A stretch of 64,000 nt of DNA from a virus. Taxonomy: Duplodnaviria > Heunggongvirae > Uroviricota > Caudoviricetes. Below, piece after piece: positions 21,201 through 36,195 of this stretch. Made by a program: the position numbers and the translations under genes. Within the stretch, counting starts at the first letter, position 1. Every line of letters starts with the position of its first letter. Under the pieces are notes generated by a model. It saw only the letters and a list, made by a program, of their open reading frames with translations. It did no database searches and was not told the origin of the DNA. Location of the stretch: positions 1 through 64,000 of the IMG/VR virus record IMGVR_UViG_3300042892_005180; one strand, written 5' to 3'.

Positions 21201-21578
21201 TTAGGGACGAAAACGTCCTCGCTTACGGTCCCAACCGATGGCGGCATAGAAAACCAGGACGTCGTCGTAGTGACACGTCGGGATGTTTTGAAACTCGTCC
21301 TCGCCCAAGATGAAGGCGTCCGTGGCCCGACGTTCCTTGAAATGATCAAGATGCAGGGTCTGGAACCACCGCATACCGGGCCGCGAGGCCCAACCTGGAC
21401 CTTCCCACCGCCTCGTCATCTCCTTGTACTTAAAACCCATCATGGAGCGGCAGTGGTTCTGCGAACTCGTTTTCACGATGTGGATGCAGACCGGGTTATT
21501 GCTCGGGTCGATCTCGATGGAGGCGAACTCCCGAACGTCAGCCAACTTGATCGTCGCCCCGGAAACGGCCGAGAACAA
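21201..21578 (-). CDS. hypothetical protein
   Basis: 125-aa ORF whose stop TAA lies within the next TAAATAG box. Confidence 0.4.
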   Translation of the reverse strand: MFSAVSGATIKLADVREFASIEIDPSNNPVCIHIVKTSSQNHCRSMMGFKYKEMTRRWEGPGWASRPGMRWFQTLHLDHFKERRATDAFILGEDEFQNIPTCHYDDVLVFYAAIGWDRKRGRFRP

Positions 21579-21840
21579 AATCGGGCTCGATCAGGACACC
21601 GTCCTCGTAGAAGGGCTGCATCTCAACGCCGAGGAAGTCTGCCCATTCGGTGGCCTCACAGAGGGCGTTGGAGCGCGTGTAGGACATCATCGGCGTCAGG
21701 GTCTGGCCGAGGTCGTTGGTGAGCGTCACCCAGTAGCCGACGCCTTTGCCGGACTCCATGGTGGTCTTCACCGAAACCGATACGATCTTGCCGCCCTCGC
21801 GGAGCGGCGCCGGGTCGCCCTTCCGTCCTTCGAACGTCAT
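21538..21840 (-). CDS. hypothetical protein
   Basis: Start MTFEGRKGD with ATGA coupling. Confidence 0.4.
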   Translation of the reverse strand: MTFEGRKGDPAPLREGGKIVSVSVKTTMESGKGVGYWVTLTNDLGQTLTPMMSYTRSNALCEATEWADFLGVEMQPFYEDGVLIEPDFVLGRFRGDDQVG

Positions 21841-22088
21841 TTCGCGGCCTCGACTTCGGCCTGCGCTTCGCGGGCTTCCCGGCAGGCCATCAGAATGGTC
21901 TTGGCCAGGGTCTCGGCGGCATCGATCTCCAGCCGGGCAACACCCCCAAGGTTGATGATATCGACTCGACCACACGACCGACCCGCGATGTGAAACGAGG
22001 CCGATTTATACATGTCGGCGGAGTTGACGAACACGACCTCGTGGCGGCGCGTCGTCGCGCCCAGCTTGCGGTTCTCGCGATCAATCAT
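21837..22088 (-). CDS. hypothetical protein
   Basis: Start MIDRENRK overlaps the small upstream ORF. Confidence 0.4.
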   Translation of the reverse strand: MIDRENRKLGATTRRHEVVFVNSADMYKSASFHIAGRSCGRVDIINLGGVARLEIDAAETLAKTILMACREAREAQAEVEAAK

Positions 22089-24019: not shown

Positions 24020-24544
24020 CTAGGCTGTATTTTTCGCAACCGTGTTTTTCTCGAACCACGCCGCCATAGCGCGAGTGTGGGACTGGAAGCAGAGTTCCTC
24101 TGGCTCCCACGCAACGCGAATTTCCGGGCACTCGTAGTTGGGCTCGAAGAAAGCGTCGAGGTCGTACTCCTGCACGGTCTGGGTGGATTCGCAGAAGATC
24201 AGGACGTGGCCGCCGTTGCTGAACGACGACACGATTTTCACCATGCTGAGATCGACGTCGAGCCCAGCTTCTTCCTTCATTTCTCGAATGGCGGCATGTT
24301 CAACCGAGGCATCCTTGGGGTCGATGTGACCAGCGATGATGTTCCATTCGCCTTTCTGGGGATGGATGCCTCGTTTGCCGATCAGGATGCCGGTGCGCTT
24401 GTGGTCGAAGCTCTTGACTGGTTGGATGAGAACCGCAACCGGCAAGGGGTTCTGCCACGTCTGCTTATCGCACCCCCGGCAAGTCTGCGGAGAGGTCGTA
24501 CCGACGTGCTCAAGGCCGCAGTGTCTACAGTATGAATCGTGCAT
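24020..24544 (-). CDS. Nudix hydrolase
   Basis: Nudix box GHIDPKDASVEHAAIREMKEEAGL. The leaderless-type promoter TTGACC-17-TATTGT lies 5 nt upstream of ATG MHDSY. Confidence 0.7.
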   Translation of the reverse strand: MHDSYCRHCGLEHVGTTSPQTCRGCDKQTWQNPLPVAVLIQPVKSFDHKRTGILIGKRGIHPQKGEWNIIAGHIDPKDASVEHAAIREMKEEAGLDVDLSMVKIVSSFSNGGHVLIFCESTQTVQEYDLDAFFEPNYECPEIRVAWEPEELCFQSHTRAMAAWFEKNTVAKNTA

Positions 24545-24574
24545 AGAAAACAATACCGCGCTCACCCGCGAAGG

Positions 24575-25372
24575 TCAACGATTGTATTTGCTAATTATCT
24601 CGCCGACCCAGGTCCGCATGTAGGGATTTAGCGGGGTTCCGAGAACCCACCCAGTGAAGTTGTCAGCCCAGAACTCCCGATCATCAGTTCTGGAGTATTG
24701 GCGAGGGAATGACGTCGAATCATTCTTCAGGCACCAGTGGTACTTGCTGCGGATGTCTGTCCAAATGCTGCGATTGACCCGGTAATGAAACCGGTGACCG
24801 AACTCATGAATGATGATCGACGTAAGGGAACTCGACGATGTCGGTGATACCCAGACCTCATCACGATCTCCGAAATATGTTCCACCCCACCGTGAATCGT
24901 CTCTGACGTACAGGGAGACGTTCATGAGCCATACCAGCCCCTTAGCAGCAAGGGCTCTGCGGGCCGACTCTACGCTCCGTGTCATTATGTCTTGATGGGA
25001 TTGTGAAACCCCATAGAAAACGATCTTTGTTTCGCCGAGGGTTTCTACTTCGGCTTTCTTGGCCGTGCTGGATGGAATGTTGGATGACGGAACTACTGCG
25101 GATGCCGGTTTTGAAATCCCGGAGGGTCTCGAAACCCCGGAGGCCGGTCTCGAAACCCCGGAACTGCCATACCGAACCCCATTGACAGTCACGCCGCCCT
25201 GGCCGGAAATAGAGATCGTCATGCCACCAGCCCTAAAGGTCTGGCCGGGGCCTGCACCCGCAAACTCGTCAAGACCCACGTCTTGGCAGCTACAATGATC
25301 GTGTGGCGCAACCTGTTCGGCGGCGGCAGTCTCTACGACAATAAGAGATTTTCGTATACCGGAGTTGTCCAT
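24575..25372 (-). CDS. Zn metallopeptidase-like protein (HEXXH)
   Basis: IIIHEFGHRFH. ATAAATATcggATG upstream. The N-terminus MDNSGIRKSLIVVE is possibly leader-like. Confidence 0.55.
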   Translation of the reverse strand: MDNSGIRKSLIVVETAAAEQVAPHDHCSCQDVGLDEFAGAGPGQTFRAGGMTISISGQGGVTVNGVRYGSSGVSRPASGVSRPSGISKPASAVVPSSNIPSSTAKKAEVETLGETKIVFYGVSQSHQDIMTRSVESARRALAAKGLVWLMNVSLYVRDDSRWGGTYFGDRDEVWVSPTSSSSLTSIIIHEFGHRFHYRVNRSIWTDIRSKYHWCLKNDSTSFPRQYSRTDDREFWADNFTGWVLGTPLNPYMRTWVGEIISKYNR

Positions 25373-27678: not shown

Positions 27679-29088
27679 TTAGGCGGAGATCGCCTTGGGC
27701 TCCGGCGAGGTCTTCTGGCTGTCCGTGAAACGACCGACCAGGGCCTTTCCTTCGGGGGTTTGCGCCAGACCGGTCAGGAGACCGGAGATGGCAGTTCCGC
27801 CGTTCGGAGAGAAGATGTCGGCGATGCTCGCAACGCCGCCCTGCATGGTGCCCGAGTTCGAGATCACCTTGATGTCGGCGGCCTTGATCGCCTGTGCCAT
27901 CTCGACGCCCACCGTCTGGCTCGCTTTGATCTGTTCGACCGTGACGAGGTATTTCTGGTAGTTGTCGTTGTCGCCAATCTCCTTGGCGAGTGTGATCTGC
28001 GCCGTGACCGGGGCCATCAGGATAAGCTCTTCGGCCTTGGCCGTCGCTTCACCCGTGGCCTTGATGCCCTCGGCGTTGTTCTTGGCTGCCGCGAGATCAC
28101 CCTGTGCGATGACTTCGGTGCGCTCGCGCTGGGCTTCGGCCGCGATGACGACCTTGCGCTTGTCGGCTTCGGAGTTGACGACCGTGACTTGGCGGTCCTG
28201 TTCGGCCTTGACGATGGCAACATCCTTGGCGATGTCGGCGGTCTTGACCTCCACGACTTTCTTGACCTCCATTTCGCGCTCCGAGGTGGTGCGGGCCTGC
28301 GTGAGGATTTCCTGGCGGGCCTGCTCGTCGGCGATGCCGACTTCCTTTTCCTTGGTGGCGGTACGAATGCCGATCTGTTGGGCGGCGTCCTGCTTTTGGA
28401 CTTCGATGGTCCGATTGGCGTCGATCTCCTTGAGTTCGGCCTCGCGGATGTTCTCCGCCACCGTGATGCGGCTTTCCATCTCGATGCGGGATTGTTCCTT
28501 GGCCATCATGTTGGCGATCACCTTGGAGCCACCGGCATCGCGAATGTCCATGAACTCGATGGATTTCACAGTGGTGACGCCCCACTCTTGAAGCTGGTGG
28601 TTGACCTCGGTGGTGAACTCGCTGCCCAGCTTGGAGCGGTCCTGCATGATCTCTTCGAGCTTGTTGGTCGAGAGAATGGTCCGCACGGCGCCCTGGAGGA
28701 CCGACTTCAACTGCTCGCGGAGTTCTTCGAACGAAGAGACCCGTTGAGCGGCGGTTGCGGATTCCTCGATACGGAAGAAGGCGACGATATCGACCATGAA
28801 GGGCAGACGGCCGATGTCGTAGGCGTCGTAGTCTTTGAGGCTGATGTCGAAGACCGACTCGGGGAATTCAGAGACGACCACACCGAAGACAGGCAGCCAC
28901 GCGGGCCACTGATAATAGGTGTTTCCGGCTTCCTTGCCCTTGCCGAATGAGGTGGTGTTTTTGCTGGACTGGACGATGTGAACCATGTTGGTCGGCACAA
29001 CGCGCCGCAGGTTGACGATGGCGATCACGAGGAAGACGCCGAAGAGGGCGACTACGGCGAGAATGCCGGGGATGATGAAATCGGTCAT
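27679..29088 (-). CDS. SPFH/band-7 (flotillin/HflC-like) membrane protein
   Basis: N-terminal transmembrane helix, SPFH-like core, and a long charged coiled-coil C-terminus (EQSRIEMESRITVAENIREAELKEIDANR..). Confidence 0.7.
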   Translation of the reverse strand: MTDFIIPGILAVVALFGVFLVIAIVNLRRVVPTNMVHIVQSSKNTTSFGKGKEAGNTYYQWPAWLPVFGVVVSEFPESVFDISLKDYDAYDIGRLPFMVDIVAFFRIEESATAAQRVSSFEELREQLKSVLQGAVRTILSTNKLEEIMQDRSKLGSEFTTEVNHQLQEWGVTTVKSIEFMDIRDAGGSKVIANMMAKEQSRIEMESRITVAENIREAELKEIDANRTIEVQKQDAAQQIGIRTATKEKEVGIADEQARQEILTQARTTSEREMEVKKVVEVKTADIAKDVAIVKAEQDRQVTVVNSEADKRKVVIAAEAQRERTEVIAQGDLAAAKNNAEGIKATGEATAKAEELILMAPVTAQITLAKEIGDNDNYQKYLVTVEQIKASQTVGVEMAQAIKAADIKVISNSGTMQGGVASIADIFSPNGGTAISGLLTGLAQTPEGKALVGRFTDSQKTSPEPKAISA

Positions 29089-29166: not shown

Positions 29167-29667
29167 CTACACGATCTGAAATTTAAATGGTTCGTCCATC
29201 AGAGCGTTTTCCATATTTCGCCGTATCACTTCGTTTGCCAAGCCGGGTCGATCTATCTGGAAATCGGGCGCCCCGGCTGACCACACCACGAACAACAGAT
29301 TTTTGATGGTCAGAGCCGTCAACTCACCAGGAGGTGACGCAAAAAGATCGAAAATTGCCCCGAACCAACCGTCACTCTCTATTAGTGCTTCAACCCATGC
29401 TTTATAGGTTGCGGCTTTTCTAATCAGATACTCGTAGTGATCATACGACCAGTCGAGAGGATATTCTTGCACATATTCTTGAGGGGCGGTTTGGCGGGTA
29501 GGCGTCCCGAAAAAAAGGTTCACGTAGTCAAACAGCATCCACAAGAACTCTGGTAGTTCTTTTTCGATATCGTAGACCTCGTCCTCGAACCTCCAGTTGG
29601 CCACGGACAGTTCGCAATAGAGAGCGACCTTGGCGTCTTGCACCAGTTCCGGGTCAATCATGTTCAT
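29167..29667 (-). CDS. hypothetical protein
   Basis: Taken from the ATG at MNMIDPELV. The tool start is TTG. Confidence 0.45.
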   Translation of the reverse strand: MNMIDPELVQDAKVALYCELSVANWRFEDEVYDIEKELPEFLWMLFDYVNLFFGTPTRQTAPQEYVQEYPLDWSYDHYEYLIRKAATYKAWVEALIESDGWFGAIFDLFASPPGELTALTIKNLLFVVWSAGAPDFQIDRPGLANEVIRRNMENALMDEPFKFQIV

Positions 29668-29727
29668 GACTTCATGATACCATTGGCCGCAACCAAAATC
29701 CAAATATAGGTGAGACTAAATAGTCTC

Positions 29728-30369
29728 ATGCTAGGTATCATATACCTCATCATCAACAAGCAAGCTCTACGTGAGCAAAAGCCTCCGTATTTCTACATCG
29801 GCTCGAAGAAAGACAAGGGCAAGTTCAATGATTATTGGGGCAGTTGCGACCTCCTTACCGAGCACGTCCGGTCTCTAGGCGTCGAGAACTTTAGCAAGAT
29901 TGTTTTGGAAGAGGTTGAGCTAGACGATCTCCTAGATACCGAACGTCGATACCAGGAAGATCGAGACTGCGTTCGCTCTCCGCTGTTCTACAACCGAGTC
30001 CTGGCCGCGTCGTCGTTTGATTTCAGTGGAACGGGCACGGTCTGGGTCAGTGATGGCGCCACGGACAGGCGAGTTCCGACTGATCAGGTTGGCGCATACG
30101 AGGAACTCGGTTTCGCCAGAGGGCGAGCCAGAGGCACGCACAACCGCAAACGCGTCTACATGAACAACGGAACGAAGTGTCGGGCGGTTCCGGGAGACAT
30201 GGTAGCAGAAATGGAGGCGGATGGCTGGTCAGTCGGTCGCCTCGCGGGCAACAATCGAGGCAAGGTCTATGTAACCAAAAATGGAAAAAACCTCATGGTC
30301 CATCCAGATCAGCTTCGAGAGTTCGAAGAAGATGGATGGACCAGAGGTTGTTCAATGGTGAAGCACTGA
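29728..30369 (+). CDS. GIY-YIG homing endonuclease
   Basis: MLGIIYLIINKQ...YFYIGS is the GIY-YIG motif. CTAAATAGtctcATG upstream lies within the 7-bp-arm palindrome GAGACTAAATAGTCTC. Confidence 0.7.
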   Translation: MLGIIYLIINKQALREQKPPYFYIGSKKDKGKFNDYWGSCDLLTEHVRSLGVENFSKIVLEEVELDDLLDTERRYQEDRDCVRSPLFYNRVLAASSFDFSGTGTVWVSDGATDRRVPTDQVGAYEELGFARGRARGTHNRKRVYMNNGTKCRAVPGDMVAEMEADGWSVGRLAGNNRGKVYVTKNGKNLMVHPDQLREFEEDGWTRGCSMVKH

Positions 30370-30703
30370 GACTATATGCTTTAGTAGTGGCCTTTTGAAG
30401 GATTACGGCGCGATCTGCCGACCGGCCTTCCAATCTTTGTCCAGATGGTCGAGCAAGCTCTAACCAACTATCCACTAGAACCGCAACTTGTATACCGCAT
30501 GCTGTGGCGGTGACGCAGAGTGCTACTCAGCAGTCCTTCCTACGTGATGCCCTGTCAAAGGCCTCTTAAGGGTTCGACCCCACCGTTCTCAGTTCTACCG
30601 ACGATCATGGCCTTGCGAGCTTCCGACCGACCCGATTGGACCGAAGTCCTCAGGTATTTGGTTCCTTACACACTCTACCGGACTGAGCTTTTGCGTTTTT
30701 CAA

Positions 30704-30778
30704 GTGAAATCAGAATCGAACTGATGACCCTCAGCTTTGAAGGCTGATGCTCTACCGTTGAGCTATTCGCAATCCATC
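30704..30778 (-). ncRNA. tRNA-like element (D-arm GCTCAACGGTAGAGC, anticodon stem-loop with UCA, T-arm ATCAG-TTCGATT-CTGAT); the acceptor stem does not pair
   Basis: Folded by eye from the reverse complement. The 5' TTGCGAA cannot pair with the 3' TTCACTT, so this is either a pseudo-tRNA or fragment, or it was misread. Confidence 0.3.
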
Positions 30779-31442
30779 GTGATGTGTCAGTCCAGTTGCT
30801 CTCAAGCTGTTTAGGCCTAAGAATACAACACACCACATACCGTTCGCCTTGCGGGCTACTTGGTCGTTCTCGTGATCGGCTTTCGCCAACCCACATCAGG
30901 TCTCAGTCGTTCTCTGTCCGGTTTTCCGACCAGTGACACCAAAGACCCTTAAACTGAACTACAGCATTCGGCTGCGAAGCCTCACACCATAGAGCCCAGG
31001 TCGTTAACCTTACGTCATGGAATGGTTTGCACCCCACTAGCGTCTTGCGGACGCAGGCTCACCTCACCTCTCGGCACTGGCAAACTTTTCATGAGCCATC
31101 CTTCCGACCTAGCACCCAGGTTTCGACACCCGATGCTTGAGGGTCTCCCCTCTAGGTCCGACCGGCGTGATCAACCCTCCTTGCGGAGGTCGAGAGGGGC
31201 ATGGCACCCCTTCCCTGTAAGCCCATTGCTGAGCCTTTCGCCACACGCGGCATCCCGGTCCCGAACACCAAACTTCCCATCCGAGACAACTCTGCCATCG
31301 CCCCGAAGGGTCTTGGCTCGGCTATCAGTTTCCGGGGAGAGTGGCTGGCTCGCTCCGAACCCCCGAAGAGGTCAGAAGCGCGCCGCGCCGTCCGTCGATG
31401 TCCACAATGTAGGGGAAGGTAGTTTTTGGGTCAACATCTTTT

Positions 31443-31470
31443 TTCGCATTTCTGCGATTTTTTTGAGACC
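31443..31470 (+). terminator. Weak rho-independent terminator (TCGCA-tttc-TGCGA plus T7)
   Basis: Direct sequence observation. Confidence 0.3.
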
Positions 31471-31486
31471 AGTTGGTTAAACCAAA

Positions 31487-31984
31487 TCAAGTCTCGGATT
31501 TAACAGCCCTTTTCGTCGCCGCCATTTCAGCGGCCCACGCACGAGTGCTGGATTGATCAATCCAATCTTCATATTGGTTCCGCCCATCGGGTCCCGAAAG
31601 ATACGAGATCACGCGGCCAGCGAACGTATTGTCCGACCGCTTCAGGGCTTCAATGGTTTCTGGTCTGGCTGTGATTTCGAAACCGAAATCGTAGACGTGA
31701 TCGTCCATGAGGTCAGCGGGAAGAAGATCGTTGATCGCACGGACGAAGCGATCAGCCCTGACTTCGTCGATAACCACCACTCCATTTTCGAGCGGGGTAG
31801 CCTGACGGGTATCGATGTTGCGCAGAAGAGCCCGGAGGTCATCCACATTGACAGAGACCTTCGCGCCTTTCGCTTTATCGCAGAGATCGCTCAACCGCTT
31901 GGCGCGCTCCGCGAGTGGCATATAGCCCATCTGGCGGGCCAGGGATTTCTGTTTGGTCACACCGGCCCCGAAGTTGCACATCAT
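31487..31984 (-). CDS. hypothetical protein, distal gene of the nrd operon
   Basis: Start overlaps the glutaredoxin gene stop as ATGA. Confidence 0.5.
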   Translation of the reverse strand: MMCNFGAGVTKQKSLARQMGYMPLAERAKRLSDLCDKAKGAKVSVNVDDLRALLRNIDTRQATPLENGVVVIDEVRADRFVRAINDLLPADLMDDHVYDFGFEITARPETIEALKRSDNTFAGRVISYLSGPDGRNQYEDWIDQSSTRAWAAEMAATKRAVKSET

Positions 31985-32229
31985 GCACCCAAATGGATGA
32001 CGAGTTGATCGTGCCCGCCGATGTACCGACCGTCAATGAAGATTTGGGGGACAGTCTTCGGCGGCTGGCCGATAGCGGCTTCGACGCGCTCGATCAGGAC
32101 TTCGCGTTCATCGACCGCGCTGATTTCCCGATAGGGGATGTTGTGTTTCTCCAGCAAGGCTTTGGCCTTGACGCAGTAAGGGCAATTGGGCTTCGAATAA
32201 ATCTCTGCCAGGGTAAGGGTATCGGTCAT
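31981..32229 (-). CDS. grx: Glutaredoxin (NrdH/Grx-like)
   Basis: CPYC active site and a glutaredoxin-like length and pattern (82 aa). Confidence 0.8.
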   Translation of the reverse strand: MTDTLTLAEIYSKPNCPYCVKAKALLEKHNIPYREISAVDEREVLIERVEAAIGQPPKTVPQIFIDGRYIGGHDQLVIHLGA

Positions 32230-32471: not shown

Positions 32472-32680
32472 ACGATTCTCGTCCAGACCGTGTGGGTGTC
32501 GCCGTGGTTGCACAGAGGGGTTGCGCCCTCTTCACGAAGTTTCGTTGACGCCTCGTATGCCTCGCGGGCCGACCCCCACGTCGAATGGTGGCGGAAGTTC
32601 CACTTTATGGCCGACCGTTTGGCCGCGCCAGCAGCGGGGCCCGTGTCTGTGGGGTCCAGGACGGATATGATCTTGATCAC
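32468..32680 (-). CDS. small hypothetical protein (GTG start overlapping the nrdB stop)
   Basis: Strong GC3 bias. GTGA coupling. Confidence 0.35.
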   Translation of the reverse strand: MIKIISVLDPTDTGPAAGAAKRSAIKWNFRHHSTWGSAREAYEASTKLREEGATPLCNHGDTHTVWTRIV

Positions 32681-33843
32681 AGAGAGAAGCCCCCGAAATC
32701 TCCCATGCCTGCGTCTTGCTTGACGCCGCCAGTGACGTAGGAGGTGATCTCGGTTTCCTGCGGGGCGACCTGAACAGTCTTCGAAGAAATCCAGGAAGCC
32801 GTCCACGGCAGCGGGTCACGAGCCGGAGATTCGAAGTCGGGCTTCATTCCGATGGCCTTCATCCGCACGGCGCCGATGTAATCGACGTACTCGCACAGCA
32901 GGGCTTCGTTGAGGCCGATGATCGACCCATCCTTGAACAGGTATTTGGCCCATGCCTTCTCCTGGTCCATGGCCGTGCGGAACATCTCACGGACTTCGTC
33001 TTCGGTCTCGACCTTGATCTTGGCGAAGTCGTCGTCATCGCCCGGCAGGATGGTGCGCATCATCTGCTGGGTGAAACCGAGGTGGAGGTTTTCATCGCGG
33101 GCGATCAGCTTGATGATCTTGGCGTTGCCCTCCATTCGTTTCGTCTCTGCGAATGCCCACGAGCACGCGAAGCTGACGTAGAAGCGGATGCCTTCGAGGA
33201 TGTTGACCGACGCCAGCGTGAGCCAAAGCTTGCGCTTCATCGCATACGGGTTGATGTCGTAGGCCTTGCCGTTGACGACGTGGACGCCGAACCCGCACAG
33301 TTGGTAGATGAGCGAATACTGCATGAAATCATCGTAGTAGTGCGAGATGTCAGTCGCGCAATCGACGATCTCCGGGATGGAGGTCATGTCATCGAAAATC
33401 TCGCTCGGGTTCGAGTAGACCTGACGAATGATGTGCGTGTAGGAGCGAGAGTGGATGGTCTCGAAGAAGGCCCAGGTCTGTGCCCACGTTTCCATCTCGG
33501 GTAGGGCCGTGATGGGCGCGAAGGTTGCTGTGGGAGCCCGACCCTGCACGGAGTCGAGAACGATCTGACGCTTGAGGTTTGAAGAAAAGATGTGCTTCTC
33601 GTGTGGGCTCAGCTTGCCGAAATCACCACGGTCACCGTTGAGATCGACTTCCTGGGGGAGCCAGAAGAAGCCAAGCTGTTTGTTGATGAAGTGTTCGACT
33701 TCTGGATACTTGACGACGTCATAGCGCGCGGTGCCGACACCACCGTTCTCGTCGAAGAACATCTTGGCGAGCAGGTGGTTGGTGGCTTTTAGATTGAATG
33801 CTGTCATGGGTTCACTTTCGGGGAATATAGGTCCCGGCGTCAA
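32677..33843 (-). CDS. nrdB: Ribonucleotide reductase class Ia beta subunit
   Basis: 388-aa ferritin-like protein with di-iron and Tyr-radical motifs, immediately downstream of nrdA. Confidence 0.9.
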   Translation of the reverse strand: MTPGPIFPESEPMTAFNLKATNHLLAKMFFDENGGVGTARYDVVKYPEVEHFINKQLGFFWLPQEVDLNGDRGDFGKLSPHEKHIFSSNLKRQIVLDSVQGRAPTATFAPITALPEMETWAQTWAFFETIHSRSYTHIIRQVYSNPSEIFDDMTSIPEIVDCATDISHYYDDFMQYSLIYQLCGFGVHVVNGKAYDINPYAMKRKLWLTLASVNILEGIRFYVSFACSWAFAETKRMEGNAKIIKLIARDENLHLGFTQQMMRTILPGDDDDFAKIKVETEDEVREMFRTAMDQEKAWAKYLFKDGSIIGLNEALLCEYVDYIGAVRMKAIGMKPDFESPARDPLPWTASWISSKTVQVAPQETEITSYVTGGVKQDAGMGDFGGFSL

Positions 33844-33863
33844 TATTTTCGTGGGAAGAAGAT

Positions 33864-33881
33864 GCCGCCCCGAAGGGCGGC
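33864..33881 (-). other. nrdA-nrdB intercistronic stem-loop (7-bp GC stem, UUCG tetraloop)
   Basis: GCCGCCC-uucg-GGGCGGC. A candidate attenuator, processing or stability element. Confidence 0.35.
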
Positions 33882-33888
33882 ACCAAAA

Positions 33889-36195
33889 TCAGAGCTTGCA
33901 GGCTTCGCAGTCGTCGTCTTCGAGTGAAGGAAGGACGTCGTCGTCCTTGCTGAGATCGATGGGACCGCTACCCGTCTCTATCTCTTGACCATCGTAGGTA
34001 TTGTAGTAGTAGAGGTTCTTCCCGCCAAACTTGTAGAAGTTGAGGAGATCGGTGATCATTTCCTTCATGGAAATCTCGCCGCCCTCGTAGTTCTGGGGAT
34101 TGTAGGACGTGTTGACCGAGATCGATTGGTCGATGTATTTCTGAAGCAGGCAGGTGATGTTCAGGTAACCACGCGGAGACTTCTGGTCCCACAGGAGGTC
34201 GAACTTGTTCTTCAGCTTGCCAATCTCGGGTACGACTTGACGCAGAACGCCGTGCTTGGAGACCTTCTCCGAAACCAGGGCCCGCACCGGCTCGATGCCG
34301 TTGGTGGCGTTCGAGAGTTGCGCGGAGGTCTCAGCAGGCATCAGGGCCATGACGGTGGCGTTGCGGATGCCGGTGGCGATCAGTTGGGACCGAAGTGCTT
34401 CCCACGGCATCCGCTCAACGTGCGGAACCAGTTGGTCGATGTCCGCCTTGCGGGTGTCGATGGGGAGAATGCCCGCCGCGTAACGGGTGCGGTCGATGGA
34501 TTCACACGCGCCTTTTTCGATGGCGAGATCGGCTGAAGCCTTGATGAGGTAGTAGGACCACGCCTCGGCATATTCGTCGATAAGCGGCAGCGCGGAGGCG
34601 TCATACTTCGCACCGTTCTTCGCGAGGAAGTAGGCGAGGTTGATGATGCCGACGCCGAGCGGACGGAACTCCTTGGTGGAGATTTCGGCCGCCTTCACCG
34701 GGTAGTCCTGATAGGTCAGGAGTTCGTCGAGGAACCGGATGGCCAGACGGCAGGGACGTTCGAAATCTTCGAGCGTTTTGATCTTGCCCCAGTTGATCGC
34801 CGACAGGGTGCAGAGGCTGATACGACCGTTCTCGTCGTCGATGCTTTCCAGCGGTACGGTCGGGAGAGTGATCTCCTGGCAGAGGTTCGACTGGGTGATC
34901 GGAGCCACGTCCGGCAGGAAGCTGCCGTGCGAGTTCGCGTGGTCGATGTTCATCAGATAGATGCGACCGGTTTCCTTGCGCTCGGTGAGGAACGCAGTGA
35001 AGACGTCGAGAGCCTTCATGGAGTGCTTGCGAATTTTCGTGTCGTTCTCATACTTGACGTAGAGGCGGTCGAACTCGTCCTGGTCCGCGCTGAAGGCTTC
35101 CAGAAGGCCCGGAACATCCTTCGGCGAGAAGAACGTGATGTCTCCACCCGAGATGAGACGCTGATACATCATGCGATTGAACAGGAAGCAGTAGTCCATC
35201 TGACGGATGCGGTTGAACTCGGTGCCCCGGTTGTTCTTCAGAACGACGAGGGATTCGAACTCGTAGTGCCACAGCGGGAAGTGGATGGTAGCCGAGCCAC
35301 CACGCACGCCGCCCTGCGAGCAGGACTTCGTCGCCGTCTGCATCAGACGCGCGTAGGGGAGGACGCCCATGTGCTCCTTGCGGCCACCAGCGACTTCGCT
35401 GCCGAGCGCGCGGATGGGACCCAGGTCGATGCCCAGCCCGGCCTTCTGCGAGATGTAGCGACCGATGGCGTGCGCGGTCGTGAAGATCGAGTCGAGACTG
35501 TCGCCGCAACGGATGGTCACGCAGGAACTGAACTGCTTCTCGGGAGTCCGAAGACCGGCCATGACCGGCGTCGGCAGTGAGATGTCAAAGGTTGAGACGG
35601 CGTCGTAGAAATCCTTGATGTAGTCCATCCGGGTTTCGCGCGGGTAGTTCATGAAACCTACGGCGGCGATCAGGATTTGTGCCATCTGCGGGGTTTCATA
35701 GATGGCGTTCGTGACCCGGTTCTTGACCAGATACTTGCCGCGCCATTGCTCCATGCCCGCGTAGGCGATGTCGTTGTCGCGCTGATGCTTGACGATCTTC
35801 TCCATACGGAGCCAGTCTTCGTCTGAGAAATTGTCAAGAAGCTCGCGGGTGTAGAGTTTCTTCTTGACGTTGGTCTCGACGAGTTGTCGAACCGTCCACG
35901 GCTCATAGCGGCCATAGACCTCCTTGCGGAGTTGATAGTTGACCAGCCGAGCAGCCACATACTGGTAGTTGGGCGTCTCTTCTGAAATGAGTTCCGAGGC
36001 TGATTTAATCAGCATCTCGTGGATGTCTTTGGTCTTGGTGTTGTTGCTGATCTGGAGCTTGGCGCGGAGTTCAAGCTCCGAGACCGAAACTCCGGTCAGG
36101 CCTTCACAGGCCCATGAGACAACTTTGTGGATTTTATCGAGGTTCAATTCCTCGCGGTCACCATTTCGCTTAACGACGATGGTCTTAGTAGGCAT
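33889..36195 (-). CDS. nrdA: Ribonucleotide reductase class Ia alpha subunit
   Basis: 768 aa, collinear with E. coli NrdA (ATP-cone, PTPVMAGLRTP, NLCQEI, C-terminal CxxC). A TAAATAC box lies about 33 nt upstream of ATG. Confidence 0.95.
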   Translation of the reverse strand: MPTKTIVVKRNGDREELNLDKIHKVVSWACEGLTGVSVSELELRAKLQISNNTKTKDIHEMLIKSASELISEETPNYQYVAARLVNYQLRKEVYGRYEPWTVRQLVETNVKKKLYTRELLDNFSDEDWLRMEKIVKHQRDNDIAYAGMEQWRGKYLVKNRVTNAIYETPQMAQILIAAVGFMNYPRETRMDYIKDFYDAVSTFDISLPTPVMAGLRTPEKQFSSCVTIRCGDSLDSIFTTAHAIGRYISQKAGLGIDLGPIRALGSEVAGGRKEHMGVLPYARLMQTATKSCSQGGVRGGSATIHFPLWHYEFESLVVLKNNRGTEFNRIRQMDYCFLFNRMMYQRLISGGDITFFSPKDVPGLLEAFSADQDEFDRLYVKYENDTKIRKHSMKALDVFTAFLTERKETGRIYLMNIDHANSHGSFLPDVAPITQSNLCQEITLPTVPLESIDDENGRISLCTLSAINWGKIKTLEDFERPCRLAIRFLDELLTYQDYPVKAAEISTKEFRPLGVGIINLAYFLAKNGAKYDASALPLIDEYAEAWSYYLIKASADLAIEKGACESIDRTRYAAGILPIDTRKADIDQLVPHVERMPWEALRSQLIATGIRNATVMALMPAETSAQLSNATNGIEPVRALVSEKVSKHGVLRQVVPEIGKLKNKFDLLWDQKSPRGYLNITCLLQKYIDQSISVNTSYNPQNYEGGEISMKEMITDLLNFYKFGGKNLYYYNTYDGQEIETGSGPIDLSKDDDVLPSLEDDDCEACKL

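What the first reader, a model, noticed from the sequence alone, without database searches (positions are those of the whole stretch)
30370..31486. 1.1-kb ORF-free, hairpin-dense region next to a GIY-YIG endonuclease gene, containing a tRNA-like element with a UCA anticodon loop
There is no credible ORF (only P/R/S-rich junk). There are several GC-rich stems closed by CGCAAG-like pentaloops (read on the minus strand at about 30612, 30857, 31045 and 31170). A tRNA-like module lies on the minus strand at about 30704..30778 (GCTCAACGGTAGAGC D-arm, anticodon stem TCAGC/GCTGA with loop CTTCAAA, T-arm ATCAG-TTCGATT-CTGAT), but its acceptor strands do not pair. T-loop-like GGTTCGACCCC and GGGGTCGAACCC motifs are also present. 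The region could be a decayed tRNA cluster (T4-like phages carry these), a novel structured ncRNA, a remnant of a group I/II intron associated with the neighbouring homing endonuclease, or a tRNA-derived decoy. A UCA anticodon would read UGA.
Basis: seen in the sequence. Interest (0 to 1): 0.7.

Follow-up and report, generated by a model that had tools for sequence, protein, structure and literature searches.

The report
Phage GOLLD RNA with embedded tRNA-like
The 1.1-kb gene-free stretch encodes a divergent copy of GOLLD, a giant phage RNA already known to assemble into hollow RNA cages, and its internal linker holds a tRNA-shaped module with a UCA anticodon, so it is a new member of a known but still function-less family.

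Summary
Window 30363-31400 has no credible ORF and is rich in tetraloop hairpins on the minus strand. A tRNA-like element with anticodon UCA lies at 30701-30772 (minus), with only 4 of 7 acceptor pairs.

The region is not a new RNA class, a decayed tRNA cluster or an intron remnant. It is a GOLLD RNA gene (Rfam RF02032) on the minus strand. The whole 416-position model matches 30838..30363 at E=3.7e-37. The score of 135.9 bits is below Rfam's cut-off of 150, so default annotation misses it.

The upstream 5' domain is homologous to the 5' domains of GOLLDs from Caulobacter phiCbK-like phages and from metagenomes. Both domains show strong compensatory covariation.

The tRNA-like module sits in the variable linker. 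In the published cryo-EM structure, that linker faces the inside of the GOLLD nanocage.

Across relatives, the D, anticodon and T arms covary and stay paired. Acceptor stems are degenerate and CCA is almost never encoded. Anticodons differ between lineages.

TGA is the commonest stop codon in the window, and I found no sign of recoding. The module is most likely a tethered tRNA mimic, not a working suppressor or selenocysteine tRNA.

Verdict: new, divergent member of a known kind, of moderate interest.

The parts
31406..31434 (-). Sigma-70-like promoter: TTGACC, 17 nt spacer, TACATT. The predicted transcription start is near 31399.
   Evidence: The same TTGACN-17-TAnnnT arrangement lies 362-569 nt upstream of the conserved 18-mer in six other GOLLD loci. 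The start site is inferred, not measured.
31272..31399 (-). Lineage-specific 5' extension holding UUCG-capped hairpins. No homology detected in relatives.
   Evidence: It lies between the promoter and the start of the profile match. It folds into hairpins in the MFE structure. That it belongs to the transcript is inferred from the promoter position.
30861..31271 (-). GOLLD 5' domain.
   Evidence: A profile of seven other GOLLD 5' domains, built without the window and without the anchoring 18-mer, hits only 31271..30932 minus at E=6.4e-20. blastn against L019 gives E=1.7e-10. Alignment A1: 86.4% of cells paired against 34-46% in slid controls, and 19 of 30 pairs with compensatory changes.
30843..30860 (-). 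Conserved junction hairpin AGUAGCCCGCAAGGCGAA (GCAA tetraloop) just 5' of the Rfam-modelled region.
   Evidence: It is identical in phiCbK-like phages, in IMG/VR contigs and in 10 metagenomic GOLLD loci.
30777..30838 (-). First hairpin of the GOLLD 3' region (Rfam model positions 1-62).
   Evidence: alignment.
30701..30772 (-). tRNA-like module in the variable linker. Anticodon loop CUUCAAA (UCA), intact D, anticodon and T arms, G18 G19 and UUCGA elbow nucleotides present, acceptor stem 4 of 7 pairs, no CCA.
30687..30700 (-). Conserved linker-end motif GAAAAACGCAAAAG, which precedes the long-range helix of the 3' domain.
   Evidence: The same motif is present in relatives with and without an embedded tRNA.
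30363..30686 (-). GOLLD 3' domain core, ending in the conserved terminal loop UAUAGUCUCAG.
   Evidence: Rfam RF02032 full-model match 30838..30363, 135.9 bits, E=3.7e-37; E=8.8e-36 for the whole window. Alignment A3: 88.3% of cells paired against 33-46% in slid controls, and 44 of 52 pairs compensatory.
30277..30349 (-). Candidate intrinsic terminator: a long hairpin (30349..30289) followed by UUUUUUCCAUUUUU.
   Evidence: -40.1 kcal/mol, z=-7.3 against shuffles. It lies inside the 3' end of the endonuclease ORF on the other strand. Its function is inferred.
29710..30369 (+). Free-standing homing endonuclease gene, probably GIY-YIG/Seg-like. It is convergent with GOLLD and overlaps its last 7 nt. 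It is a neighbour, not part of the RNA.

Best explanation
Identity. The region is a phage-encoded GOLLD RNA gene on the minus strand. The RNA would run from a predicted start near 31399 to the end of the Rfam match at 30363, about 1,040 nt. It would be about 1,120 nt if it runs on to the candidate terminator.

Transcription. It appears to have its own sigma-70-like promoter, downstream of the nrdA-nrdB-glutaredoxin-orf165 genes, which lie on the same strand.

Shown here:
- homology of both domains to known GOLLDs;
- conservation of the secondary structure through compensatory changes;
- placement of a tRNA-shaped module in the variable linker.

Taken from published work on other GOLLDs (PMC12286853, PMC12990946): the RNA folds into separate 5' and 3' domains, and 10-14 copies assemble into a closed RNA-only cage. 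The linker, and so the tRNA-like module, points into the cage interior. Whether this copy forms a cage is not tested.

My inference for the module. It is kept as a tethered tRNA mimic: an L-shaped body with a canonical 7-nt anticodon loop but a defective acceptor end. It would not be cut out and charged as a tRNA. Its likely role is as a ligand or bait for something that recognises the tRNA elbow or anticodon loop, such as ribosomes, tRNA-modifying enzymes or host anticodon nucleases, either inside the cage or exposed when the cage opens.

Confidence. About 0.95 for the GOLLD identity, about 0.5 for 'mimic rather than released tRNA'. The biological function of GOLLD itself remains unknown.
For: GOLLD identity.
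- Rfam GOLLD matches over all 416 model positions at E=3.7e-37, and is the only non-tRNA hit in 64 kb.
- The nearest relatives pass Rfam's cut-off: phiCbK 165.3 bits, L003 and L005 183.6 bits.
- 3' domain: 44 of 52 independently predicted pairs carry compensatory changes, 88% paired against 33-46% in slid controls.
- 5' domain: leave-one-out profile E=6.4e-20, with covariation.
- Promoter and terminator-like hairpin.
- Phage context: RNR genes, glutaredoxin, DnaB-like and other helicases, with jumbo phages as nearest relatives.

tRNA module.
- The D, anticodon and T stems are 92-100% paired with many compensatory changes across 11 relatives. The acceptor stem is only 63% paired.
- In a wider viral sample, GOLLD-linker tRNAs have a fully paired acceptor stem in 5 of 25 cases and an encoded CCA in 2 of 25. 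Free-standing tRNAs in the same loci have 306 of 377 and 260 of 377 (Fisher p=4e-10 and 1e-9).
- TGA is the main stop codon (39 of 75 ORFs) and ends full-length NrdA and NrdB. No recoding signal was found.

Literature.
- The linker lies inside the cage, and tRNAs are sometimes present in the linker (PMC12286853).
- A pseudo-tRNA inside a mycobacterial GOLLD was not detectably expressed on its own (PMC6582537).
- A 7-bp acceptor stem is described as a major RNase P determinant (PMC4201824).
Against: - The Rfam score (135.9) is below the curated gathering score (150).
- The 3' domain is only 40-48% identical to relatives, and on the raw MAFFT alignment the window forms 39 of 52 consensus pairs, the fewest in the set.
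- No expression data. Both transcript ends are predicted.
- Cage formation is extrapolated from other GOLLDs.
- The module scores like a genuine tRNA (55.9 bits) and has U33, A37 and a G at the discriminator position. CCA can be added after transcription. Release and use as a weak UGA suppressor is therefore not excluded.
- Unlike many GOLLDs, there is no tRNA island nearby: this is the only tRNA call in the 64-kb window.
Confidence: 0.9

Rival explanations
1. The linker module is a genuine tRNA gene. GOLLD would act as its precursor or storage form. RNase P and 3' processing release a tRNA(UCA) that is charged and reads UGA as an opal suppressor, possibly derived from tRNA-Trp.
For: - High tRNA model score with a canonical anticodon loop and elbow nucleotides.
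- The loop CUUCAAA is, from my recollection of tRNA-Trp sequences, one transition away from the tRNA-Trp loop CUCCAAA.
- The same loop recurs in L008 and L031.
- One relative (L015) has a better acceptor stem and an encoded ACCA.
- A published 'inhibited storage' idea exists for embedded tRNAs (PMC12990946).
- NrdA (stop TGA) and NrdB are in the same frame, 15 codons apart.
Against: - The acceptor stem has 3 mismatches in 7, two of them at the terminal pairs, and there is no CCA.
- Degenerate acceptor stems and missing CCA are the rule for GOLLD-linker tRNAs, unlike free-standing phage tRNAs.
- TGA ends 39 of 75 ORFs, so efficient suppression would be costly.
- The best read-through candidates turned out to be adjacent genes with their own starts. 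The in-frame NrdA-NrdB arrangement is expected by chance about 1 time in 6.
- The mycobacterial embedded pseudo-tRNA was not detected as a separate RNA (PMC6582537).
Confidence: 0.1
2. The module is a selenocysteine tRNA, as ARAGORN labels it.
For: ARAGORN output 'tRNA-SeC (tca)'.
Against: ARAGORN gave the SeC label to every UCA-anticodon tRNA seen here. By established knowledge, bacterial tRNA-Sec is about 90-100 nt with an 8-bp acceptor stem, a 6-bp D stem and a long extra arm. This element is 72 nt with a 4-bp D stem and a 5-nt variable loop.
Confidence: 0.01
3. The region is a decayed tRNA cluster, or the remnant of a group I/II intron linked to the neighbouring homing endonuclease.
For: Homing endonucleases often accompany introns and tRNA arrays. 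An HNH endonuclease accompanies GOLLD in mycobacterial tRNA arrays (PMC6582537).
Against: - Only one tRNA-like element is present.
- No intron, RNase P or tmRNA model matches even at E<=10.
- The whole region is accounted for by GOLLD 5' and 3' domains with covariation.
- The endonuclease ORF lies outside the RNA, on the other strand, overlapping it by 7 nt.
Confidence: 0.01
4. The region is a frameshifted or mis-assembled protein gene.
For: A 152-aa ORF (31022-31480, +) exists.
Against: - The sequence is 100% identical in five independent assemblies, so an assembly error is unlikely.
- The ORF products are low-complexity and P/R/S-rich.
- The substitution pattern in relatives is compensatory base-pairing on the minus strand, not codon-like.
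Confidence: 0.01

Closest known systems
GOLLD RNA of Caulobacter phiCbK-like phages (for example NC_019405 102.3-103.1 kb; these sequences are already in the GOLLD alignment of PMC12286853)
   Same: - The same 18-nt junction hairpin.
- A homologous 5' domain start and 3' domain.
- The same slot, and a visibly homologous tRNA-like module: 5' UUGCGAAUAGC... and ...GAAAAACGCAAAG.
- Its own TTGACN-17-TAnnnT promoter.
   Different: - The 3' domain is only about 48% identical.
- The window RNA has an extra 5' extension of about 130 nt.
- The anticodon loop is CUUCAAA (UCA), against CGUCCUA in phiCbK and CUCUUAA in Karma.
- phiCbK's GOLLD sits among tRNAs and a permuted tmRNA and has a terminator directly after it. 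Here there is no tRNA island, and a homing endonuclease gene abuts the 3' end.
GOLLD env-38 (833 nt, cryo-EM 14-mer nanocage, PDB 9MEE; PMC12286853) and Streptococcus agalactiae GOLLD (12-mer, PDB 9L0R; PMC12990946)
   Same: Same Rfam family. Same two-domain layout, with a disordered variable linker between the first 3' hairpin and the long-range helix.
   Different: The linkers of the solved RNAs are short and contain no tRNA. Here the linker carries a 72-nt tRNA-like module. The RNA is about 200 nt longer and GC-rich. Oligomerisation of this copy is untested.
Mycobacterial GOLLD with an internal pseudo-tRNA or tRNA-Phe (PMC6582537; Morgado et al. 2020 as cited in PMC12990946)
   Same: A tRNA-like gene inside the GOLLD linker. 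A homing-type endonuclease close by. Probable phage origin.
   Different: The mycobacterial copies lie within 30-40-gene tRNA arrays. The anticodon, the host range and the endonuclease class (HNH there) differ.
YrlA-type bacterial and phage Y RNAs (tRNA mimics; PMC4201824)
   Same: It works like these: a tRNA-shaped domain with authentic D and T arms is built into a larger scaffold RNA, usually without a 7-bp acceptor stem, and so is not a normal RNase P substrate. A UCA tRNA-like module with the same acceptor mismatch pattern occurs in a YrlA-like array on viral contig L031.
   Different: No YrlA model match in the window. No Ro60/Rsr gene was looked for. In YrlA the region equivalent to the anticodon stem carries the Ro-binding helix, whereas here a full anticodon arm is present.
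ROOL RNA
   Same: A large phage or prophage RNA that forms cages, often near tRNAs, with an internal disordered linker (PMC12286853, PMC5737381).
   Different: Unrelated sequence and fold. No Rfam ROOL match here.

Membership tests
GOLLD RNA (Rfam RF02032) | Statistically significant match to the family covariance model over its full length | tested here: met
   Model positions 1-416 of 416 match. E=3.7e-37 in a 2.7-kb search and E=8.8e-36 for the whole window.
GOLLD RNA (Rfam RF02032) | Score at or above Rfam's curated gathering score (150 bits) | tested here: not met
   135.9 bits, and no GOLLD hit in gathering mode. Close relatives pass: 165.3 bits and 183.6 bits. The shortfall fits a divergent member with large insertions, not a non-member.
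GOLLD RNA (Rfam RF02032) | Conserved 3'-domain secondary structure maintained by compensatory changes | tested here: met
   RNAalifold on 10 sequences: 44 of 52 pairs compensatory, 88.3% paired against 33-46% in slid controls, and 0 of 500 shuffles reach the observed values. The window row forms 39 of 52 of these pairs on the MAFFT alignment. In the CM alignment, by my count of its marks, about 9 pairs are non-canonical.
GOLLD RNA (Rfam RF02032) | Family sequence signatures: terminal loop GUAGUCUCAG, GAGUAG, A-rich ...GCAAAAG before the long-range helix, and UAAUCC | tested here: met
   All four are visible in the alignment and in A3.
GOLLD RNA (Rfam RF02032) | A large, less conserved 5' domain contiguous with the 3' domain, total length near or above 800 nt | tested here: met
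   5' domain homology at E=6.4e-20 with covariation. From the predicted start to the 3' end is about 1,040 nt. The start is inferred from the promoter.
GOLLD RNA (Rfam RF02032) | Variable linker between the first 3' hairpin and the long-range helix, sometimes holding a tRNA | tested here: met
   The tRNA-like module at 30701-30772 falls in the unaligned linker of the model. 11 relatives of the subfamily carry a tRNA-like module there, as do 20 of 108 viral loci in a wider sample.
GOLLD RNA (Rfam RF02032) | Phage or prophage context | tested here: met
   RNR genes, glutaredoxin, DnaB-like helicase, other helicases and a homing endonuclease. The helicase is closest to jumbo phages.
GOLLD RNA (Rfam RF02032) | Neighbouring tRNA genes or a tRNA island (typical of the family, not obligatory) | tested here: not met
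   ARAGORN and Rfam find no other tRNA in the 64-kb window.
GOLLD RNA (Rfam RF02032) | Self-assembly into a closed homo-oligomeric cage; expression rising during lytic growth | not testable with these tools
   Known for env-38, S. agalactiae and L. brevis GOLLDs only (PMC12286853, PMC12990946).
Canonical elongator tRNA | Cloverleaf with D, anticodon and T arms, a 7-nt anticodon loop with U33 and a purine at 37, and G18 G19 / T-loop elbow nucleotides | tested here: met
Canonical elongator tRNA | Acceptor stem of 7 bp with at most an occasional mismatch | tested here: not met
   4 of 7 pairs form. Pairs 1-72, 2-71 and 4-69 are mismatched. Of free-standing tRNAs in comparable phage loci, 81% are fully paired.
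Canonical elongator tRNA | Release from the precursor, a CCA end and aminoacylation | not testable with these tools
   No CCA is encoded: the 3' flank is GAAAAACGC. Processing needs experiments.
tRNA-Sec | 8-bp acceptor stem, 6-bp D stem, long variable arm, length about 90-100 nt | tested here: not met
   72 nt, 4-bp D stem, 5-nt variable loop.
Suppressor tRNA of a stop-codon-recoded phage | The matching stop codon is depleted as a terminator and occurs in frame inside genes | tested here: not met
   TGA ends 39 of 75 ORFs, including full-length NrdA and NrdB. The read-through candidates are explained by adjacent genes.
Group I / group II intron | Match to intron covariance models; endonuclease ORF inside the intron | tested here: not met
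   No match at E<=10. The endonuclease ORF lies outside the RNA, on the opposite strand.

The most novel reading that the evidence does not exclude
The GOLLD linker module would be a swappable 'anticodon display' rather than a tRNA gene. A conserved tRNA body with a disabled acceptor end is tethered inside, or presented by, the RNA cage, and the 7-nt anticodon loop is the specificity element.

Observations behind this reading:
- Anticodons differ between lineages: UCA, UCC, CUU, CAG, CAU, ACG, UCU and others.
- Between the near-identical phiCbK and Karma GOLLDs, 5 of the 10 differences are the five consecutive loop positions 33-37.
- The same loops recur in unrelated lineages: UCA in the window, L008 and L031; CUU in Karma and L005.

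In this reading the UCA copy here would act in one of two ways. It could be a decoy or sponge for a host factor that targets a particular anticodon loop, such as an anticodon nuclease or modification enzyme, in line with phage tRNA counter-defence (PMC10264068, PMC11555353). Or it could be a stop-codon-specific ribosome ligand.
Probability: 0.12. Interest if true: 0.7.

Novelty: new member of a known kind. Interest (0 to 1): 0.35.

Why it matters
GOLLD is among the largest bacterial and phage non-coding RNAs. It was recently shown to form RNA-only nanocages, yet its function is unknown.

This copy adds four things:
- It is a divergent, GC-rich member from an uncultured phage whose replicative helicase is closest to those of jumbo phages. 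It falls below Rfam's threshold and would be missed by routine annotation.
- It has a clear promoter and terminator frame, which makes it easy to clone.
- Its linker carries a tRNA-like module with a stop-codon anticodon.
- It led to a family-wide comparison showing that linker tRNAs keep the tRNA body but not a proper acceptor end or CCA. That argues for mimicry over tRNA supply and narrows the hypotheses about what the cage holds.

None of this changes the classification. The finding is a known kind of element.

Tried and rejected
Searches that found no useful relatives:
- Megablast of 24 kb around the site against the phage collection: no match, so there is no close cultured relative.
- Neighbouring proteins orf165 and orf178 in IMG/VR: none.
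- Exact-protein look-up of orf165: it found the same phage in five assemblies, but all are 100% identical across the RNA, so they give no variation to analyse.
- Scan of genome contigs with the 18-mer: only chance matches, no GOLLD. 15 of the 25 metagenome matches were also chance.

Stop-codon recoding:
- Treating TGA as sense raises ORF coverage from 0.84 to 0.91, but the GC-rich sequence and looser stop set would be expected to do that in any case.
- The 184-aa read-through 'extension' of ORF 24575-25372 is a separate Nudix-like gene with its own ATG.
- The extension of 21424-21993 is low-complexity junk.

Method and minor leads:
- My first count of acceptor-stem pairs from ARAGORN coordinates was wrong, because encoded CCA shifts the register. 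The control on free-standing tRNAs exposed this. I redid it from ARAGORN's bracket output.
- A possible outer helix, UUGCG (the 5' acceptor strand) pairing with CGCAA (the linker-end motif), exists only in the window/phiCbK/L008/L015 clade and shows no covariation, so I dropped it.
- I could not locate the published L20-J13/15 kissing loop in this sequence with confidence.
- The original GOLLD paper (Weinberg et al. 2009) and Morgado et al. 2020 are not held in the library.
- A leave-one-out covariance model of the 3' domain was not built, because its length would exceed the calibration limit.
Full report
**1. The observation**

Window 30370-31486 has no credible ORF. Only short ORFs (44-152 aa) with proline-, arginine- and serine-rich products overlap it. 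Gene callers on five public assemblies that carry exactly this sequence call nothing there.

About 0.4 would be expected from the window-wide density. They are C-G-closed GCAA (GNRA) tetraloops. Hairpins with a GNRA or UNCG tetraloop and a stem of at least 4 bp are enriched about six-fold on the minus strand of the region. There are 7 on the minus strand and 1 on the plus strand, and Poisson p is 2e-4 against the rest of the window.

ARAGORN finds one tRNA in the whole window, at 30701-30772 (minus) with anticodon UCA. The Rfam tRNA model scores it at 55.9 bits against a cut-off of 29. Its D, anticodon and T arms are perfect. Its acceptor stem has only 4 of 7 pairs.

The two 'T-loop-like' motifs are a single near-palindromic hairpin (30570-30581) read on both strands.

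The neighbouring ORF 29710-30369 (+) matches PHROG homing-endonuclease families at E=1.5e-14. Support for the GIY-YIG class is weak: Pfam SegE_GIY-YIG at E=0.038, plus a GIIY...YIGS motif visible in the sequence.

**2. What it is**

An Rfam scan at curated thresholds reports only the tRNA. An E-value scan of 29500-32200 reports GOLLD RNA (RF02032) at 30838..30363 on the minus strand. It covers all 416 model positions at 135.9 bits, E=3.7e-37. Over the whole 64-kb window this is the only non-tRNA match, at E=8.8e-36. The score lies below Rfam's gathering score of 150, which explains why default annotation misses it. No intron, RNase P, tmRNA or other model matches even at E<=10.

The Rfam model covers only the conserved 3' half of GOLLD. 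The tRNA-like element falls in the part of the alignment that the model treats as the variable linker.

**3. Relatives**

A blastn search of the phage collection finds only Caulobacter phiCbK-like phages, matching the linker region. In phiCbK the same place holds a GOLLD above Rfam's threshold, at 165.3 bits. It has an annotated 'tRNA-Gly' inside it and a permuted tmRNA and tRNAs beside it.

An 18-nt hairpin just 5' of the Rfam match, AGUAGCCCGCAAGGCGAA (window 30843-30860), is identical in the window and in phiCbK. Using it as a probe recovered further GOLLDs from IMG/VR (L003 and L005, 183.6 bits). It also recovered ten from metagenomes: L007, L008, L011, L013, L015, L019, L021, L026, L027 and L030. 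The remaining matches were chance hits, as were all nine matches in representative bacterial genomes.

**4. Structure and extent**

*3' domain.* I aligned the 3' domain downstream of the linker from ten loci (A3) and ran RNAalifold, independently of Rfam. It predicts 52 pairs, and 44 of them show compensatory double changes. 88.3% of cells are paired, against 33-46% when partners are slid by 1-3 columns. No shuffle out of 500 reaches the observed values. The window is the most divergent row. It is 40-48% identical to the others and forms 39 of the 52 pairs on the raw alignment, which fits its sub-threshold score.

*5' half.* A profile built from seven other GOLLD 5' domains, without the window and without the 18-mer, hits the window only at 31271..30932 (minus) at E=6.4e-20. 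blastn against L019 gives E=1.7e-10. On alignment A1, 19 of 30 predicted pairs are compensatory and 86.4% of cells are paired, against 34-46% in slid controls.

*Promoter.* A sigma-70-like promoter, TTGACC-17-TACATT, lies at 31434..31406 on the minus strand. The same arrangement lies 362-569 nt upstream of the 18-mer in six other loci. The window's distance of 545 nt is within that range. The 128 nt between the predicted start (near 31399) and the start of detectable homology (31271) is a lineage-specific extension.

*Terminator.* Downstream of the 3' end, on the minus strand, a long hairpin (30349..30289) is followed by UUUUUUCCAUUUUU. Its free energy is -40.1 kcal/mol, with z=-7.3 against shuffles. 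This is a plausible intrinsic terminator. It lies within the last codons of the convergent endonuclease gene.

The RNA is thus about 1,040 nt to the end of the model, or about 1,120 nt to the terminator. Both ends are predictions.

**5. Context**

The flanking genes on the same strand are nrdA, nrdB, a glutaredoxin and an unknown orf165 upstream, and an unknown ORF and an SPFH/band-7 protein downstream. The window also encodes a DnaB-like helicase and other helicases. The DnaB-like helicase is closest (52-56% identity) to those of PA5oct-like Pseudomonas jumbo phages and Sinorhizobium phage Phosso.

No close relative exists in the phage collection or in IMG/VR. The same genotype occurs, 100% identical over the RNA, in five assemblies, including a 119.5-kb contig.

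The endonuclease gene is the only one of these immediate neighbours on the opposite strand. Its stop codon overlaps the last 7 nt of the GOLLD, which suggests a mobile insertion next to the RNA gene.

**6. The tRNA-like module**

*Conservation of the body.* Eleven relatives carry a tRNA-like module in the same slot. Across them the D stem is 100% paired, the anticodon stem 98% and the T stem 92%, with many compensatory changes. The acceptor stem is only 63% paired (hand parse). Only L015 encodes ACCA.

*Anticodons.* They differ from lineage to lineage:
- UCA: the window and L008, which share the identical loop CUUCAAA
- UCC: phiCbK
- CUU: Karma and L005
- GCU, CAG, CCU, CAU, ACG, UCU: the others

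*Wider sample.* I collected viral contigs using the GOLLD 3' terminal motif. 20 of 108 loci have a tRNA call in the linker, and none has UCA. Using ARAGORN's own structure strings, on a set that also includes subfamily loci, linker tRNAs have a fully paired acceptor stem in 5 of 25 cases and an encoded CCA in 2 of 25. Free-standing tRNAs in the same loci have 306 of 377 and 260 of 377 (Fisher p=4e-10 and 1e-9).

*Not a selenocysteine tRNA.* It is 72 nt long with a 4-bp D stem and a 5-nt variable loop. ARAGORN gave the SeC label to every UCA tRNA seen here.

*No sign of UGA recoding.* TGA ends 39 of 75 ORFs, including full-length NrdA and NrdB. The longest read-through extensions are explained by adjacent genes.

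**7. How it probably works**

Published cryo-EM work shows that GOLLD RNAs fold into separate 5' and 3' domains. They assemble without protein into closed cages of 10-14 copies, and the variable linker points into the lumen. The authors note that tRNAs are sometimes present in that linker and draw a model in which an opened cage exposes covalently linked tRNAs (PMC12286853). A review suggests 'inhibited storage' of the embedded tRNA (PMC12990946). In Mycobacterium aubagnense the GOLLD is expressed, but its internal pseudo-tRNA was not detected as a separate RNA (PMC6582537). [quoted passage not shown]

Combining these with the results above, I consider it most likely that this RNA forms such an assembly and that the module stays attached as a tRNA mimic. 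It would serve as a ligand or bait for factors that recognise the tRNA elbow or anticodon loop. These steps are inferred. What is shown is family membership, the conserved structure, and the anatomy of the module. The rival reading, release as a weak opal suppressor, is not excluded, and I give it about 0.1.

**8. Comparison and novelty**

The element is a GOLLD RNA. It meets every defining feature I could test except Rfam's curated bit-score cut-off, and it lacks the typical (not obligatory) neighbouring tRNA island. Embedded tRNAs or pseudo-tRNAs in GOLLD linkers are already described, and phiCbK-like GOLLDs are already in the published alignment.

New here:
- this divergent member, in an uncultured phage whose helicase is closest to those of jumbo phages;
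- the stop-codon anticodon of its module;
- the quantified observation that linker tRNAs generally lack a proper acceptor end and CCA.

**Verdict:** new member of a known kind, of moderate interest.

Noticed in passing
L001 3121-3125 versus L002 (phiCbK versus Karma GOLLD): The two GOLLDs differ at only 10 positions in about 870 nt. Five of these are consecutive and are exactly anticodon-loop positions 33-37 of the embedded tRNA-like module (GUCCU to UCUUA), which turns 'Gly UCC' into 'Lys CUU'. Both alleles occur among the 18 phiCbK-like phages, annotated as tRNA-Gly or tRNA-Lys. It looks like a cassette-type replacement of the loop.
   Followed up: partly
L031 9400-10400 (IMGVR_UViG_3300050821_018577, 178 kb): A UCA tRNA-like element at 9440-9513 has the same loop CUUCAAA and the same acceptor mismatch pattern as the window's module. 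It is not in a GOLLD. It is the first unit of a tandem array of modules with repeated flanks (..TTACTG..CTTACATG [tRNA-like] ..CGACATA), two of which give sub-threshold Rfam YrlA (Y RNA-like) matches.
   Followed up: partly
GOLLD-bearing viral loci L046-L165: Linker-embedded tRNAs have a fully paired acceptor stem in 5 of 25 cases and an encoded CCA in 2 of 25. Free-standing tRNAs in the same loci have 306 of 377 and 260 of 377. This is a family-wide property that I did not find stated in the papers read.
   Followed up: yes
window 30277-30349 (minus), inside ORF 29710-30369 (+): A very stable hairpin plus U-run (-40 kcal/mol, z=-7.3) lies within the last 30 codons of the homing endonuclease gene, about 15 nt downstream of the GOLLD 3' end. 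It may be the GOLLD terminator, embedded in the coding sequence of the opposite strand.
   Followed up: partly
window 31444-31465 (+): A small hairpin TCGCATTTCTGCGA followed by TTTTTTT reads as a terminator on the plus strand, right at the 5' edge of the GOLLD gene. It could stop antisense transcription coming from the endonuclease gene through the GOLLD. The stem is only 5 bp.
   Followed up: no
window 32677-36195 (minus): NrdA ends in TGA, and NrdB follows in the same reading frame after 15 stop-free codons, so UGA read-through would give an NrdA-NrdB fusion. This is expected by chance about 1 time in 6. Noted only because of the UCA module nearby.
   Followed up: partly
window 24020-24574 (minus): A Nudix-like gene (Nudix box GEWNIIAGHIDPKDASVEHAAIREMKEEAGL, own ATG) follows ORF 24575-25372 in the same frame. 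A simple longest-ORF call prefers a spurious plus-strand ORF (24077-24535) here.
   Followed up: partly
L041-L045 (Logan SRR35488161, SRR35488121, SRR27420180; JGI 3300042889, 3300046002): The same phage genotype, 100% identical over the 1,251 nt compared, occurs in at least five independent assemblies, one of them a 119.5-kb contig.
   Followed up: yes
L001 2107-2546 and 1585-1652 (phiCbK): Next to the phiCbK GOLLD, on the opposite strand, lie a permuted tmRNA (71.4 bits) and a sub-threshold YrlA-like match (29.7 bits). The locus is a dense cluster of tRNA-related structured RNAs.
   Followed up: no
window 27679-29088 (minus): A 469-aa phage protein with an SPFH/Band 7 domain (Pfam E=4.8e-16) and a long charged coiled-coil-like tail lies two genes downstream of the GOLLD.
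   Followed up: no
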